Assembly (NCBI GenBank): GCA_964016885.1 | Contig: OZ024741.1 | Location: 334,924,001 to 334,988,000 of the forward strand | DNA from: Eledone cirrhosa | Lineage: Eukaryota | Reading direction: 5' to 3' | DNA: 64,000 nucleotides | Shown here: one piece after another, positions 2,823 through 35,796 of the stretch | Layout of the letters: each line of letters starts with the position of its first letter | Numbering within the stretch: the first letter of the stretch is position 1 | Made by a program: the position numbers and the translations under genes | The notes under the pieces: model-generated | The model's database searches: none | Seen by the model: only the letters and a program-made list of their open reading frames with translations | What the model was told of the DNA's origin: nothing

Positions 2823-3027
2823 AACGAAGGAAATGTGGTAGGGAACCAGGTGGACCATAACGCACCAAAGTACTCAATACTTGAGGTAGTAGAGTGGGTA
2901 ATAGGAACCAGTAAGACCCCGACAGCTGAGCTCAAGCCGTTTCGACGGCTAATTCTGGACTGAATTAGTCCAGAATTAGCCGTCGAAACGGCTTGAGCTC
3001 AGCTGTCGGGGTCTTACTGGTTCCTAT
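2823..3027 (-). mobile_element. Fold-back remnant of a Penelope-like terminus containing the 3' half of a hammerhead ribozyme (family copy 1)
   Basis: Perfect 61-bp inverted arms 2901-2961/2967-3027; GAAAC-GGCT-tgagctc-AGCT-GTC stem III plus cleavage triplet; unpaired tail 2823-2900; (TA)n on both sides. Confidence 0.7.
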
Positions 3028-3174
3028 ATATATATATATATATATATATGTATATATATATATATATATATATATATATATATACACATATATATATATA
3101 TGCATATGTATGTATATATACATATATATATTTGTGTGTGTATATAAGTACATGTATATATAAATATGTGTAGG

Positions 3175-3420
3175 TGGAGGCACGTGGTCTAGTGGTAAGG
3201 GTGTTGGAGTTACTATTATAATGTCGTTCATTCGCTTCCTGGGTTGTGAGTTGTGTTCTTGAGCAAAATACATCATTTCACGTTGCTCCAGCTGAAAATG
3301 ATTACCAGCAATAGCTGGGGTTTTAACGCTGTGATGGACTGGTTTCCTGTCCAGTGGGGAGTCTTGTACTCTCAGTCGCTTCATACCATGAAAGCGGGAT
3401 AAGCACCGACCAAATGAGCT
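3175..3420 (+). mobile_element. tRNA-derived SINE with CORE-like and V-domain-like segments
   Basis: A-box-like TGGTCTAGTGG; TGTGTTCTTGAGCAA core; GTGATGGACTGG...TCCAGTGGGGAG...AGTCGCTTCAT...GGGATAAGC. Confidence 0.6.
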
Positions 3421-3844
3421 TTCTGGCTTAAGACAAACTTTAGAATTTTTTTTTTATATATATATGTGTGTTTATATATATATATATATGTGTATGTGTA
3501 TATATATATATGTGTGTGTATATATACATTAAAAACATTATAACACCTTATTTGTTGAAAATATTTTGGGTTCTTTTTTTCCATATTGGGAATAAGTTAT
3601 TTAAATAGATGAACACTATGAATATAAATGTATATTTACATGTGGTGCCACAAGGTTCCATAATATAGCGGTACACTAAATATATGTAATTCATCTTGTA
3701 ACTATAATTTGACACAATAATAAATTGTGGAATTATAAACAGGCAAGTTTAATATTACCACAGAGCTGGGTTTGTATTCTCAAAAAGAATAGAAATATAA
3801 TTCATTTCAAATGAATAGGATTGATATATTCATCTATACAAGAA

Positions 3845-4245
3845 AAGATACTCTCATGGAATAACCAAATGAGGTTTATTTGATTATGTAAGGTGATATA
3901 TGAGGATCTACCAAAAGCTTCAGAGGCTGACCAAATGAGATTTATTTTATTATGTAGGGTGGTATACGAGGTCAGCTGAAAAGTTCATAGGTTGACCAAG
4001 ATACTCTCATGGAATGACCAATTGAGGTTTATTTTATTATGGAGGGCAATATATGAGGATCAGCCGAAAGGTACATTGGCTGATCAAGATACTCTCATGG
4101 AATGTCCAAATGAGGTTTAAGTTCCTGGAAAGAAACAGTGCAGTTATTAATAAGTAGTAGTTGAAATTAATGCATGCAACATTTTATAGCTCTAGCATCA
4201 CTCCTTCATAGTTAGCCTATGGACATTTCAGCCACCCTCTTCTGT
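3845..4245 (+). mobile_element. Mariner-like MITE whose 5' ~64 bp is tandemly amplified about 4 times
   Basis: TACGAGG..GCTGAAAAGTTCATAGG end with inverted counterpart TAGCCTATGGACATTTCAGCCACCCT; repeated AAGATACTCTCATGGAATGACCAAATGAGGTTTA; homologues at 22878 and 56215. Confidence 0.65.
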
Positions 4246-4434
4246 ATAAATATATATATATATATAAGGTAATACTAATTTGGTATAAATATCCAAGGGT
4301 TAAGAGCACTCAGTCCATAATTAGTTACAACCATGACATGTACAGGTACTGTAACTGCACATGTCAATGTACTGTAACTAATTATAAAAATTCTAAATAT
4401 TAATATATATATATACATATATATATATATATAT

Positions 4435-4672
4435 AAGTGGTTACACAACAGTTAGTTCACCATACCGAGAACAATTGTTTCACCTTAGCGGAACCTCAGC
4501 TCATAATGGGTTCGCTCGTAATCGGTCCGCCATTACGAGCTGAGATTCCGCTAAGGTGAAACAATTGTTCTTGGTATGGTGAACTAACTGTTGTGTAACC
4601 ACTTCTACCTAACTCGTCCCATGGACTGAGTGCTCTACCACTACGGATATTACCTTCCAGTGTTCTACCACT
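4435..4672 (+). mobile_element. Fold-back element with a degenerate type-I hammerhead (Penelope-like terminus, second family)
   Basis: 75-bp inverted arms 4435-4509/4530-4604; CGAG-CTGAG(A/G)T-..CC gctaa GG-TGAAAC-AATT-GTT-CT(C/T)G; tail to 4672; (TA)n flanks. Confidence 0.6.
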
Positions 4673-4854
4673 ATATATATATATATATATATATATATAT
4701 ACATGAGTGGGCTGTAAGTGATAAGACAAATTCTCTAGTGTTGGTGCTATGATAAAATGTAACGATAACATTTAATAATATGGTTGGTATCTTTAGTCAT
4801 GAGTAGACTCTTTAGTCATGTCAAGACCTTAACAACAGCTCTATTACTAGCACC

Positions 4855-5052
4855 ATAATAAAACACACCCAGTACACTCTGTAAAGTGGCTGACATTATA
4901 AAAATAACATGGAATGTTTAAGTGACGTGTGGTCTTCCATCTCATCTATAAAGGGAGTAACTCTGAGTAAATTCTGATATAGACTTAGACTTTAACGACT
5001 GTTCAACCTATGCCTGCATGGAAAGTGAATACAAACTGATGATGATGATGAT
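4855..5052 (+). mobile_element. Degenerate 3' end of an RTE-type LINE or partner SINE
   Basis: CACCCAGTACACTCTGTAAAGTGG...CAACCTATGCCTGCATGGAAAG...(TGA)n matches the 3' UTR of the LINE at 55170-55367. Confidence 0.55.
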
Positions 5053-32800: not shown

Positions 32801-34820
32801 CAGCAGTAGCAATAGCCACAACATTATCAACACCACCACCACCACCATCCCTAATATTATCAGCAGCAGCAATAGCCACAACATTATCAACACCACCACC
32901 ACCACCACCACCACCACTAATATTATCAGCAGTAGCAATAGCCACAACATTGTCAACACCACCACCACCACCACCACCACTAATATTATCAGCAGCAGCA
33001 ATAGACACAACATTATCAACACCACCACCACCACCACCACCACTAATAATATCAGCAGCAGCAATAGCCACAACATTATCAACACCACCACCACCACCAC
33101 CATCACTAATATTATCAGCAGTAGCAATAGCCACAACATTATCAACATCACCACCACCGCCACCATCACTAATATTATCAGCAGCAGCAATAGCCACAAC
33201 ATTATCAACACCACCACCACCACCACCATCACTAATATTATCAGCAGTAGCAATAGCCACAACATTATCAACACCACCACCACCACCACCACCACCACCA
33301 CTAATATTATCAGCAGTAGCAATAGCCACAACATTATCAACACCACCACCACCACCACCATCACTAATATTATCAGCAGTAGCAATAGCCACAACAATAT
33401 CAACACCACCACCACCACCACCACTAATATTATCAGCACCAGCAATAGCCACAACATTATCAACACCACCAACACCACCATCACTAATATTATCAGCAGT
33501 AGCAATAGCCACAACATTATCAACACCACCACCACCACCACCATCACTAATATTATCAGCAGTAGCAATAGCCACAACATTATCAACACCACCACCACCA
33601 CCATCACTAATATTATCAGCAGTAGCAATAGCCACAACATTATCAACACCACCACCACCACCATCACTAATATTATCAGCAGCAGCAATAGCCACAACAT
33701 TATCAACACCACCACCACCACCACCACCATCACTAATATTATCAGCAGTAGCAATAGACACAACATTATCAACACCACCACCACCACCACCATCACTAAT
33801 ATTATCAGCAGCAGCAATAGCCACAACATTATCAACACCACCACCACCACCATCACTAATATTATCAGCAGTAGCAATAGCCACAACATTATCAACACCA
33901 CCACCACCACCATCACTAATATTATCAGCAGCAGCAATAGACACAACATTATCAACACCACCACCATCACTAATATTATCAGCAGTAGCAATAGCCACAA
34001 CATTATCAACACCACCACCACCACCACCACCACCACCATCACTAATATTATCAGCAGTAGCAATAGACACAACATTATCAACACCACCACCACCACCATC
34101 ACTAATATTATCAGCAGTAGCAATAGCCACAACATTATCAATACCACCACCACCACCACCACTAATATTATCAGCAGTAGCAATAGCCACAACATTATCA
34201 ACACCACCACCACCACCACCATCACTAATATTATCAGCAGTAGCAATAGACACAACATTATCAACACCACCACCACCACCATCACTAATATTATCAGCAG
34301 TAGCAATAGTCACAACATTATCAACACCACCACCACCACCATCACTAATATTATCAGCAGTAGCAATAGCCACAACATTATCAACACCACCACCACCACC
34401 ACCACCACCACTAATATTATCAGCAGCAGCAATAGCCACATCATTATCAACACCATCACCACCACCATCACTAATATTATCAGCAGCAGCAATAGCCACA
34501 ACATTGTCAACACCACCACCACCACCATCACCATCACTAATATTATCAGCAGCAGCAATAGCCACAACATTATCAACACCACCACCACCACCACCACCAT
34601 CACTAATATTATCAGCAGCAGCAATAGCCACAACATTATCAATACCACCACCACCACCACCATCACTAATATTATCAGCAGTAGCAATAGCCACAACATT
34701 ATCAACACCACCACCACCACCACCACTAATATAATCAGCAGTAGCAATAGCCACAACATTATCAACACCTCCACCACCAACACCATCACCAATATTATCA
34801 ACAACTACAACAACATTATT
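26890..34820. repeat. ~7.9-kb minisatellite; ~60-bp unit with constant CTAATATTATCAGCAG(C/T)AGCAATAGCCACAACATTATCAAC and a variable (ACC)n tract
   Basis: Roughly 125-130 tandem units, length varying in steps of 3 nt. Confidence 0.97.
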
Positions 34821-34837
34821 ATCAATAACATGGGAGG

Positions 34838-35003
34838 GGGGGAATTGGCAGTATCGGTAGAGAGTCAGACATGCTTTACGATCTGAGTTCAAATCCCACC
34901 GATGTTAACTTTGCCTTTCATCCTTTCGAGGTCGATAAAATAAAGTACCAGTAATGTAGTGAGATAATTGTCTGCCTTGTGCCAAAAGTAGAAACAATTA
35001 TTA
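34838..35003 (+). mobile_element. SINE of the dominant family (internal deletion) abutting the array
   Basis: GGCAGTATCGGTAGAG...GAGTTCAAATCC...GCCTTTCATCCTTTCGAGGTCGATAAAATAAAGTACC. Confidence 0.85.
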
Positions 35004-35069
35004 TCAATAACTACATTATCAACAACCACATATATTTATGTATATATGTATATATAAATATATATATAC

Positions 35070-35345
35070 CGGGTGATGTGTTGTTTCCTTGAGCAATACA
35101 CTTTATTTCACATTGCTCCAGTTTACTCAGCTGTAGAAATGAGATGATAGGGACAGGGGTCCCTATCATTCCACTGCAAATTGGTCATGGAGGTGCCATG
35201 GCGAAAAAGCCCCCCAGCAGTCACTGTAAATGAGGTTGGTGTTAGGAAGGGCATCCAGCTGTAGAAATCAAGCCAGAATCAGTTACCGTCCCACCCTTGC
35301 AAGCAGGGAAAAAGCGGACGTAAAATGAAATGAAATGAAATGAAT
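35070..35345 (+). mobile_element. SINE-like fragment: CORE-like segment joined to an RTE LINE 3' tail, (AAATG)n end
   Basis: TTCCTTGAGCAATACACTTTATTTCAC core; CTGTAAATGAGGTTGGTGTTAGGAAGGGCATCCAGCTGTAGAAATCAAGCC shared with 55192-55242. Confidence 0.65.
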
Positions 35346-35371
35346 AGATATATATATATATATATATATAT

Positions 35372-35559
35372 GTAGGAGGTGAGTTTTATTGTAGCACAAT
35401 AAAGCAATGCAAATATCGGATAAGTAGCACTGTACTGTTTGTAGGACTGGAGTATAAATAATATAAGATCAAAAGATGGTTAAAAGAGTTCCAAGTATTT
35501 TATTATGCGCATAATAAAATACTTGGAACTCTTTTAACCATCTTTTGATCTTATATTAT
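35372..35559. repeat. Perfect 102-bp palindrome (35458-35559, centre ATGCGCAT) with an unpaired tail on the left, (TA)n-flanked
   Basis: Base-by-base complementarity, no loop. Confidence 0.9.
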
Positions 35560-35603
35560 ATATATATATATATATTATATATATATATATATATATATAT
35601 ATA

Positions 35604-35796
35604 TAGGAAAAAGTATGACCTCGACGGCAGAGCTCAAGCCGTTTCGACGAGTATTTCTGTCCAGAAATAGCCGTCGAAACAGCTTGAGCTCTGACGTCGG
35701 GGTTATACCTGTTCCTATTACCCACTCTGCTACACTAAGTATTGAGTAATCTGGTGCGTTATGGTCCATCTGGTTCCTTACCACAATTCCTTCGTT
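35604..35796 (+). mobile_element. Fold-back Penelope-like terminus (family copy 3)
   Basis: Imperfect arms ~35604-35659/35662-35717; GAAAC at 35676-35680; tail homologous to copies 1 and 2. Confidence 0.7.

What the first reader, a model, noticed from the sequence alone, without database searches (positions are those of the whole stretch)
2823..35796. Three related hairpin-plus-tail elements fold back exactly at hammerhead ribozyme loops
Seen: copies at 2823-3027, 8406-8543 and 35604-35796 share one ~80-nt tail, sit in (TA)n, and are capped by palindromes of different length. Each carries all or part of the 3' half of a hammerhead (GCCGTC-GAAA-C-GGCT-tgagctc-AGCT-GTC), and none has the CUGAnGA half. 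In copies 1 and 3 the apex lies just upstream of GAAA, the predicted stem II hairpin. In copy 2 it lies on GAGCTC, the palindromic stem III loop. Established: Penelope-like elements carry hammerheads in their pseudo-LTRs and often have inverted 5' ends. Inference: reverse transcription stalls in the ribozyme and the cDNA end snaps back on the ribozyme's own hairpin to self-prime, so ribozyme structure sets the truncation point.
Basis: partly seen in the sequence, partly recalled or inferred. Interest (0 to 1): 0.8.

Follow-up and report, generated by a model that had tools for sequence, protein, structure and literature searches.

The report
Penelope hairpins record RNA 5' ends
The three hairpins are short head-to-head remnants of an abundant Penelope-like retrotransposon, likely made when two DNA copies of one RNA ran off that RNA's 5' end and were joined, so the genome probably records where the element's RNA starts and where its ribozyme cuts.

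Summary
The three elements are real. They are 3' ends of a Hydra-type Penelope-like element (RT plus C-terminal GIY-YIG, (TA)n target, hammerhead in the pseudo-LTR) with thousands of copies. In 90 copies taken in chromosome order, both arms stop 133-143 nt from the 3' end (50 of 55 tailed arms, 49 of 52 tailless arms). The tailless arm is the longer one in 27 of 65, which fold-back cannot make. Copies read through from longer RNA cross the same structure without stopping (0 of 39). Of 21 template-jump junctions, 11 land at this wall and 8 at the hammerhead cleavage site. Best reading: two cDNAs, primed at two fixed sites on one RNA, run off its 5' end (a probable transcription start on an initiator motif, or the ribozyme cut) and are end-joined. 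So the ribozyme sets a minority of truncations, by cutting and not by stalling. No RNA data were available. The architecture is known; the junction evidence on mechanism was not found in print.

The parts
2823..2900 (-). Copy 1: 78-nt unpaired tail (d78-d1), between the two inferred reverse-transcription start sites
2901..2961 (-). Copy 1: paired part of the tailed arm (d139-d79): 3' strand of stem II, GAAA, stem III, GUC site, stem I 3' strand; tailed arm has 1 mismatch in 139 nt to a unit of the young subfamily
2962..2966 (-). Copy 1: 5-nt junction insert that repeats the neighbouring sequence (templated-insertion type of end joining, inferred)
   Evidence: sequence
2967..3027 (+). Copy 1: inverted tailless arm (d139-d79), abutting (TA)n
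8406..8435 (-). Copy 2: inverted tailless arm, ending in the self-complementary TGAGCTCA of stem-loop III
8436..8543 (+). Copy 2: tailed arm (tail 8466-8543); a minority junction type (2 of 65 two-armed copies)
35604..35659 (-). Copy 3: inverted tailless arm of an older subfamily, 8 mismatches to its partner arm
35659..35796 (+). Copy 3: tailed arm d138-d1 (tail 35719-35796)
4438..4672 (+). Hairpin-plus-tail copy of a second Hydra-type family, used as a control: its hammerhead is d138-d99 and most arm ends lie upstream of it

Best explanation
These hairpins are head-to-head pairs of 3'-end copies of a Hydra-type Penelope-like retrotransposon, likely made as two separate cDNAs from one RNA that each ran off the RNA's 5' end and were then end-joined. 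Steps: (1) inferred: the element's endonuclease cuts both strands in (TA)n. (2) Shown as fixed ends, inferred as priming sites: one DNA end primes at the RNA site d1, the other at d79, and the 78 nt between them is the tail. (3) Shown as a sharp wall and as template-jump landing sites, inferred as an RNA 5' end: both cDNAs end at d138-143. (4) Inferred: this end is the transcription start of the pseudo-LTR promoter, with A139 as the +1 of an initiator-type motif and a cap copied as an extra G. (5) Shown as a second landing site at d98, inferred as cleavage: the hammerhead cuts after GUC and creates a second, rarer 5' end. (6) Shown as diverse junctions, inferred as repair: the cDNA ends are joined bluntly, by microhomology or with short inserts; copy 2's apex is such a join at a self-complementary 8-mer. 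(7) Inferred: sometimes the enzyme jumps from the RNA 5' end to an RNA 3' end and copies on. Long seamless tandem arrays would come from circular or multimeric RNA.
For: Wall: 50 of 55 tailed and 49 of 52 tailless arms at risk stop at d133-143. The outer end of the inverted arm is d79 in 53 of 65. 61 distinct junctions among 62 short two-armed copies (34 inserts, 18 overlaps, 10 blunt). Two cDNAs: the tailless arm is longer in 27 of 65, with no arm overlap in 7. Extreme cases: about 2.8 kb against 0.96 kb (L062) and about 16 kb against about 0.28 kb (L323/L324). In the commonest recurrent junction the longer arm is tailless in 13, tailed in 6, neither in 1 of 20. Same RNA: the arms agree at subfamily sites in 154 of 161 comparisons, about 93 expected by chance. 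RNA 5' end: 0 of 39 read-through copies stop at the wall; all 9 of 48 that do are jump products. 19 of 21 body-to-pLTR jumps land at d136-143 (11) or d98-100 (8), p about 1e-17 against uniform. The second pass never goes beyond its landing class (0 of 8 and 0 of 11). Start site: A139 is the only YYANWYY match between d200 and d74 (consensus recalled). G precedes A139 in 46 of 100 rows against 21 of 100 at C136 (counted by eye; p 3e-4). In family 2, 23 of 39 untemplated bases before A141 are G (by eye). Hammerhead: the young subfamily has the U3-A8 core (9 of 10 copies) and its minimum-energy fold is a type I hammerhead. Literature: two internal RT start sites define the tail and both strands are cut and extended (PMC11167929); Penelope's start site lies in the pseudo-LTR (PMC2377424 passages; PMC8557442).
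Against: No RNA evidence. The scripted extra-G check on fetched loci was not significant: 3 of 8 against 9 of 73, p 0.09. At jump junctions the base before A139 was C in 3 of 5. Breaks at G138 (30) outnumber those at A139 (13), and there is a second peak at d142-143 with T-runs and no clear G. 26 of 100 rows at A139 share one junction that a cap does not explain. No clear DPE match at +28 to +32 (read by eye, consensus recalled). No complete unit was seen that ends at the wall, which a simple linear mRNA would give. About half of all arms that reach T140 run on (by eye), so the wall is weaker across all subfamilies than in the sample, which excludes copy 1's subfamily. 51 of 66 full hammerheads have a mismatched C3/A8 core (sample biased to that subfamily), and Rfam finds no hammerhead. 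Family 2 shows no pile-up at its cleavage site (about 18 true breaks in 100 of 194 rows). Deletion after insertion could produce some short asymmetric copies.
Confidence: 0.7

Rival explanations
1. Two cDNAs run off an RNA 5' end at d138-143 as above, but that end is made by cutting or blocking inside loop II (a nuclease at the U-A and C-A steps, or a splicing branch point), not by transcription start.
For: The wall coincides with the 3' strand and apical loop of the predicted distal stem II. U|A139 and C|A143 are pyrimidine-A steps. The scripted extra-G test was not significant. No clear DPE.
Against: G excess at A139 in the genome-wide rows and at A141 in family 2, where the site lies outside the hammerhead. 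Initiator-type matches at d139 in family 1 and at d141 and d160 in family 2. The known Penelope start site is in the pseudo-LTR.
Confidence: 0.17
2. One reading: the RT stalls in the folded ribozyme and the single cDNA snaps back on a ribozyme hairpin to prime its own second strand.
For: The wall lies within the stem II / loop II region. The arms share subfamily variants. Copy 2 and 2 of 65 others centre on the palindromic stem-loop III. Self-priming has been proposed for Penelope palindromes (PMC3846280 passages).
Against: The stem II 5' strand is absent from short copies. Tailless arms are longer in 27 of 65, with no overlap in 7. Read-through copies show no stop. Blunt zero-loop joins occur at a non-palindromic site (L111, L135). 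The fixed outer end at d79 is unexplained. Family 2 ends: 4 of 44 in loop II, 2 of 44 in loop III.
Confidence: 0.06
3. Self-priming on an antisense RNA whose 3' end lies at d139-143 (the model of Arkhipova et al. 2013), with the T-runs as poly(A) tails.
For: Proposed in print for head-to-head palindromes (PMC3846280). A few arms are preceded by long T-runs (3 of 100 rows; L006).
Against: It cannot give each arm sequence that the other lacks. Jump junctions join sense body ends to sense pLTR starts at two fixed sites, one being the sense-strand ribozyme site. No AATAAA upstream on the antisense strand (sequence).
Confidence: 0.03
4. The hairpins are copies of one or a few master hairpin elements, or long palindromes trimmed after insertion.
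For: One junction recurs in 26 of 100 rows. Copy 2 could arise by deletion between TGAGCTCA repeats.
Against: 61 of 62 junctions are distinct. The recurrent junction occurs in both orientations to the tail and in two subfamilies. Trimming does not explain a wall shared with the jump landing sites.
Confidence: 0.04

Closest known systems
Hydra clade of Penelope-like elements (Craig et al. 2021, PMC8557442; read: passages and section 11)
   Same: Single ORF with RT and C-terminal endonuclease; RW(R/K), DKT, CxCX5C, CxxC and CxH motifs; (TA)n target; partial tandems; inverted 5'-truncated partner; tail.
   Different: Unit about 3.5 kb (Hydra generally under 3 kb); tail 78 nt (30-40 described); non-canonical hammerhead core with a long loop II; very high copy number dominated by 140-nt head-to-head pairs. 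Whether this family is in that paper's supplementary files was not checked.
Poseidon from Anolis carolinensis, PAc (Frangieh et al. 2024, PMC11167929; read: parts 1-2 of 4, the main text)
   Same: Two RT start sites whose distance is the tail; both DNA strands cut and extended; AT-rich target; hammerhead in the pseudo-LTR.
   Different: That work did not detect RNA ends at the hammerhead site and did not address how inverted 5' ends form. Here the junctions mark the cleavage site and a 5' wall.
Adineta vaga Penelope elements (Arkhipova et al. 2013, PMC3846280; read: passages)
   Same: Inverted pseudo-LTRs with palindromes at the junction and an optional tail.
   Different: Interpreted there as self-priming, probably on an antisense template. 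The copy census here favours two cDNAs.
Hammerhead/circular-RNA model for PLEs (Cervera and de la Pena 2014, PMC4209133; read: parts 1-2 of 4)
   Same: U3-A8 core variant; palindromic loop III; opposite-strand pairs of motifs; proposed circles that give head-to-tail tandems.
   Different: Their model was tentative and had no in vivo evidence. Here there are ends at the cut site and near-identical 4-junction arrays, but circles are still not shown.
L1 twin priming and R2 template jumping (PMC2912911 passages; PMC8857657 abstract)
   Same: Two target ends prime on one RNA and the cDNAs are joined; an extra G is read as a copied cap; RT jumps between templates with untemplated additions.
   Different: In L1 the inverted piece is upstream sequence primed at variable internal sites. 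Here both cDNAs copy the same 3' segment from two fixed sites, which gives a palindrome.

Membership tests
Penelope-like element (EN+) | Single ORF with RT and GIY-YIG-type endonuclease | tested here: met
   RT motifs (FDI..Y, YRDDG) and the C-terminal nuclease region are collinear with about 700-aa relatives at 33-43% identity; a 747-aa open frame in array units. Pfam is weak: none on own pieces, GIY-YIG E 0.04 on relative P0007.
Penelope-like element (EN+) | Pseudo-LTR partial tandems, inverted 5'-truncated partner, optional tail | tested here: met
   310 head-to-tail junctions; 65 of 90 copies two-armed; 78-nt tail.
Hydra clade | RWK-type, DKT, CxCX5C linker, CxxC and CxH motifs; C-terminal EN | tested here: met
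   RWR, DKT, CNCPVGSIC, CNLC and CKH are present in L064 and L061, against the description.
Hydra clade | Insertion into (TA)n | tested here: met
Hydra clade | Generally shorter than 3 kb | tested here: not met
   Units are 3,531-3,543 bp; the paper says 'generally', so this is not decisive.
Hydra clade | Placement in the Hydra clade on an RT tree; absence of the CCHH motif | not tested
   No named reference sequences were fetched.
Type I hammerhead ribozyme | Core with a 3-8 pair, GAAA, NUH site, G10.1-C11.1, stems I-III | tested here: met
   Young subfamily (parent of copy 1): U3-A8 core in 9 of 10, with the hammerhead as minimum-energy fold. Not met for the C3/A8 subfamilies (51 of 66 copies examined).
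Type I hammerhead ribozyme | Match to an Rfam hammerhead model | tested here: not met
   No hit for L064 or L323 segments.
Type I hammerhead ribozyme | Self-cleavage after GUC | not testable with these tools
   Indirect only: 8 of 21 jump junctions land at d98-100.
Pol II internal promoter in the pseudo-LTR (Penelope type) | Capped 5' end at an initiator, with downstream element | tested here: inconclusive
   Initiator-type match at A139; extra G significant in by-eye counts but not in the scripted check; no clear DPE; no RNA.
Self-primed fold-back insertion | Inverted arm wholly contained in the primary (tailed) cDNA | tested here: not met
   Tailless arm longer in 27 of 65, no overlap in 7; L062, L323/L324.

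The most novel reading that the evidence does not exclude
Penelope-like elements make a paired 'strong-stop' product: a dimeric enzyme primes both cut DNA strands at two fixed sites near the RNA's 5' end, both cDNAs run off the capped start or the hammerhead cut, and the ends are joined head to head. The same enzyme jumps end to end between RNA ends and rolls on ribozyme-made circles, which would explain pseudo-LTRs, tails, inversions and tandem arrays in one cycle and give the first in vivo footprint of a PLE hammerhead.
Probability: 0.4. Interest if true: 0.78.

Novelty: new member of a known kind. Interest (0 to 1): 0.56.

Why it matters
How Penelope-like elements, the closest mobile relatives of telomerase, form their pseudo-LTRs, tails and inverted ends, and whether their hammerheads act in vivo, is stated as open in the papers read (PMC8557442, PMC11167929, PMC4209133, PMC3846280). 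This genome holds thousands of young independent insertions whose junctions separate the models. They argue against self-priming, place RNA 5' ends to a few bases, and mark the ribozyme cut. That makes the cycle directly testable with 5'-end sequencing and the published in vitro assay. The element and its architecture are of a known kind.

Tried and rejected
RNA search: no RNA holder listed, so no evidence either way. Laying four contig sets of unrecorded kind on copy 3 showed family joints of the same type, but no piece spanned the copy and the source may be the assembly's own sample; not used as support. Rfam on the window gave only microsatellite-driven miRNA noise; on the hammerhead segments nothing; one search was aimed mostly at the wrong part of L234 and is uninformative. 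Pfam on own ORF pieces was blank. An assembly artefact was rejected: the outer ends are fixed, the arms carry 129 private differences in 43 pairs, and copy 3's arms differ at 8 sites. A ruler from the cDNA start was rejected: arms starting at d1 and d79 stop at the same template position. A spliced 5' exon was rejected: no shared sequence lies upstream of the wall. The dinucleotide between two A139 ends (50 of 99 loci, by eye: AA/TT 13, GG/CC 10, CT/AG 7, GT/AC 6, CG 5, AT 4, CA/TG 2, TA 2, GA/TC 1, GC 0) leans to G but is not a clean double-cap signal. Earlier-findings look-ups returned nothing. Literature searches found no paper with this junction analysis. Subscription papers, Repbase and the supplements of PMC8557442 and PMC11167929 were not seen and may list this family.
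Full report
OBSERVATION. The three elements are present as described. Each is a palindrome plus a 78-nt unpaired tail in (TA)n. Arms are 61 bp with 0 mismatches (copy 1, minus strand), 30 bp with 1 (copy 2) and 57 bp with 8 (copy 3). A 27-nt tail pattern has 4,691 exact matches and the reversed control none. 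Positions below are d, the distance from the element's 3' end in a natural near-complete copy, L064.

PARENT. Longer copies carry an RT followed by a GIY-YIG-type nuclease, collinear with about 700-aa relatives (274 hits; alignment). The motifs RWR, DKT, CxCX5C, CxxC and CxH and the (TA)n target match the description of the Hydra clade (PMC8557442 section 11). No tree was made. The tail runs straight into the element's 5' body at 310 exact head-to-tail junctions. Two arrays have units of 3,531-3,543 bp that differ by 0-7 mismatches and keep a 747-aa open frame. The pseudo-LTR holds a type I hammerhead-like motif at d189-94. The young subfamily, to which copy 1 belongs (1 mismatch in 139 nt), has the U3-A8 core in 9 of 10 copies and folds as a hammerhead at minimum energy. 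Overall 51 of 66 full copies examined have a mismatched C3/A8 core; this sample is biased to that subfamily. Rfam does not score either form. The U3-A8 variant is described in PMC4209133.

WHERE THE ARMS END. I took the first 90 of the 100 listed tail matches along contig C1; L157 had only 200 bases upstream. This pattern excludes copy 1's subfamily. 65 of 90 have an inverted partner arm, whose outer end is d79 in 53. Of arms that reach d133, 50 of 55 tailed and 49 of 52 tailless stop by d143. Only 10 of 155 ends lie at stem-loop III, 2 at d96-100 and 1 in d144-189. 61 of 62 short junctions are distinct. Across all subfamilies the wall is softer: about half of 100 listed arms that reach T140 run on (16,508 matches, by eye).

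TEST OF SNAP-BACK. A fold-back copy must lie within the tailed cDNA. Instead the tailless arm is longer by more than 5 nt in 27 of 65, shorter in 9 and similar in 29; in 7 the tailed arm ends inside the tail, so the arms share nothing. Sampling on the tail favours this asymmetry, but its existence is the point. Long cases are L062 (about 2.8 kb against 0.96 kb) and one array (about 16 kb against about 0.28 kb). The natural stem II 5' strand survives in only 4 of 90 copies, all long. For the commonest recurrent junction, fetched at 20 of the 26 listed places, the longer arm is tailless in 13, tailed in 6 and neither in 1. The arms agree at subfamily sites in 154 of 161 comparisons against about 93 expected, so both come from one source RNA or locus. 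Later deletion could explain some short asymmetric copies and is not excluded one by one.

TEST OF STALLING. If the structure stalled the enzyme, it would do so wherever it is copied. In best-hit copies with the 5' body, 0 of 18 upstream pseudo-LTRs that reach d133 stop at the wall (limits chained by hand). In 67 head-to-tail junctions (three inner junctions of one array dropped; 2 gave no usable limit), 9 of 48 at risk stop there. All 9, at 8 loci, are a special class in which a short piece of body is followed directly by the pseudo-LTR again. The other 39 pass, though for most of them only 210 bases of body were in view.

JUMP JUNCTIONS. A scan of the fetched loci found 21 body-to-pseudo-LTR joins: 11 land at d136-143, 8 at d98-100 (6 exactly at d98, the base after the hammerhead's GUC) and 2 elsewhere (p about 1e-17 against uniform). 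L311 is a further landing at d142. The body side varies from +63 to +1095 in those 19, and several joins carry short untemplated inserts. The second pass of cDNA never extends beyond its landing class (0 of 8, 0 of 11). This fits an enzyme that runs off an RNA 5' end and jumps to an RNA 3' end, as R2 RT does (PMC8857657 abstract); ligated mini-circles are the alternative. Either way, d138-143 and d98 behave as RNA 5' ends of transcripts that continue into the body.

NATURE OF THE MAIN END. A139 is the +1 of the only YYANWYY match between d200 and d74 (consensus recalled). Penelope's start site is known to lie in the pseudo-LTR (PMC2377424 passages). An extra G is read as a copied cap in L1 and SVA (PMC2912911 passage). 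By eye, G precedes A139 in 46 of 100 listed rows of 9,724 and C136 in 21 of 100 of 1,160. After dropping 26 recurrent junctions, 5 intact variants and 21 partner-templated rows it is 25 of 48 (p 3e-4). Against this, a scripted check on fetched loci gave 3 of 8 against 9 of 73 (p 0.09), G138 ends outnumber A139 ends there, jump landings at A139 are mostly preceded by C, and the recurrent junction is unexplained. I put transcription start at about 0.65 and processing in loop II at about 0.2.

SECOND FAMILY. The hairpin at window 4438-4672 belongs to another Hydra-type family (3,514 matches; nuclease motifs) with a compact canonical-core hammerhead at d138-99. Of 44 arm ends from 30 loci (one duplicate dropped), 4 are in loop II, 2 in loop III, 10 at d138-147, 7 at d148-165 and 8 beyond. 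Initiator-type matches lie at d141 and d160. Before A141, 23 of 39 untemplated bases are G, after dropping 29 point mutants, 19 (TA)n flanks and 13 partner-templated rows (by eye). There is no pile-up at its cleavage site. So ends follow a position near d140, not the ribozyme loops.

MECHANISM AND PRIOR ART. PAc cuts and extends both strands and starts at two internal sites whose distance is the tail (PMC11167929). That accounts for the fixed ends at d1 and d79. Adding run-off at the RNA 5' end and end joining gives the hairpins. Copy 2 is a minority join at the self-complementary 8-mer of stem-loop III (2 of 65), for which snap-back, pairing of two cDNAs and later collapse cannot be told apart. 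Inverted pseudo-LTRs with palindromic junctions and tails are long known and were read as self-priming (PMC3846280). Ribozyme-made circles were proposed for the tandems (PMC4209133), and the near-identical arrays fit that but also fit recent duplication. A 2026 preprint on animal retrozymes (10.64898/2026.07.22.740005, passages) concerns tandem non-autonomous units, not these pairs. Searches found no junction census of this kind. Supplements and Repbase were not seen. No RNA run was listed.

VERDICT. Interest 0.56, for making an open mechanistic question testable.

Noticed in passing
window 4438-4672: Hairpin-plus-tail copy of a second Hydra-type family with a compact canonical-core hammerhead; 3,514 exact matches of a tail pattern.
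   Followed up: yes
window 35400-35564 and 13820-13919: Two more long palindromes (56 and 49 bp arms) beside TA repeats, apparently with one-sided extensions; the first recurs in at least five fetched loci. Possibly further Penelope-like families.
   Followed up: partly
L321/L322 (G000:C1:91472000-91491999): A tandem array with four head-to-tail junctions is preceded by at least 51 head-to-tail copies of a 55-bp internal fragment of the element itself, running off the fetched edge; could be reiterative copying by a telomerase-like RT, or a satellite born from the element.
   Followed up: partly
L323/L324 (G000:C1:437196000-437215999): About 16-kb array of 3,531-bp units differing by 0-1 mismatch, ending at the tailless site and capped by a short inverted tailed arm.
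   Followed up: yes
L291, body position +58: Family 1 body joined directly to family 2 pseudo-LTR sequence: a cross-family template jump or a nested insertion.
   Followed up: no
L194, L198, L252 (also L183), body about +817 to +835: Recurrent 3' end of the body in jump products, some with short A-rich inserts; perhaps a premature polyadenylation or termination site.
   Followed up: no
arms ending at d142, e.g. L115, L006: Extra T's or long T-runs directly upstream of the wall on both arms; would fit stuttering on a terminal U-run.
   Followed up: partly
L064:8718-9899 (coordinates on the reverse complement): ORF fragment of a third, diverged Penelope-like family near the reference copy.
   Followed up: no
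window about 35900-43500 and 26000-34000: A long 24-bp tandem repeat (312 copies in register) and a second strongly C-rich, A-rich tract.
   Followed up: no
window 49041-49970 and 53499-54428: 930-nt inverted repeat, 75% complementary, 3.5 kb apart.
   Followed up: no
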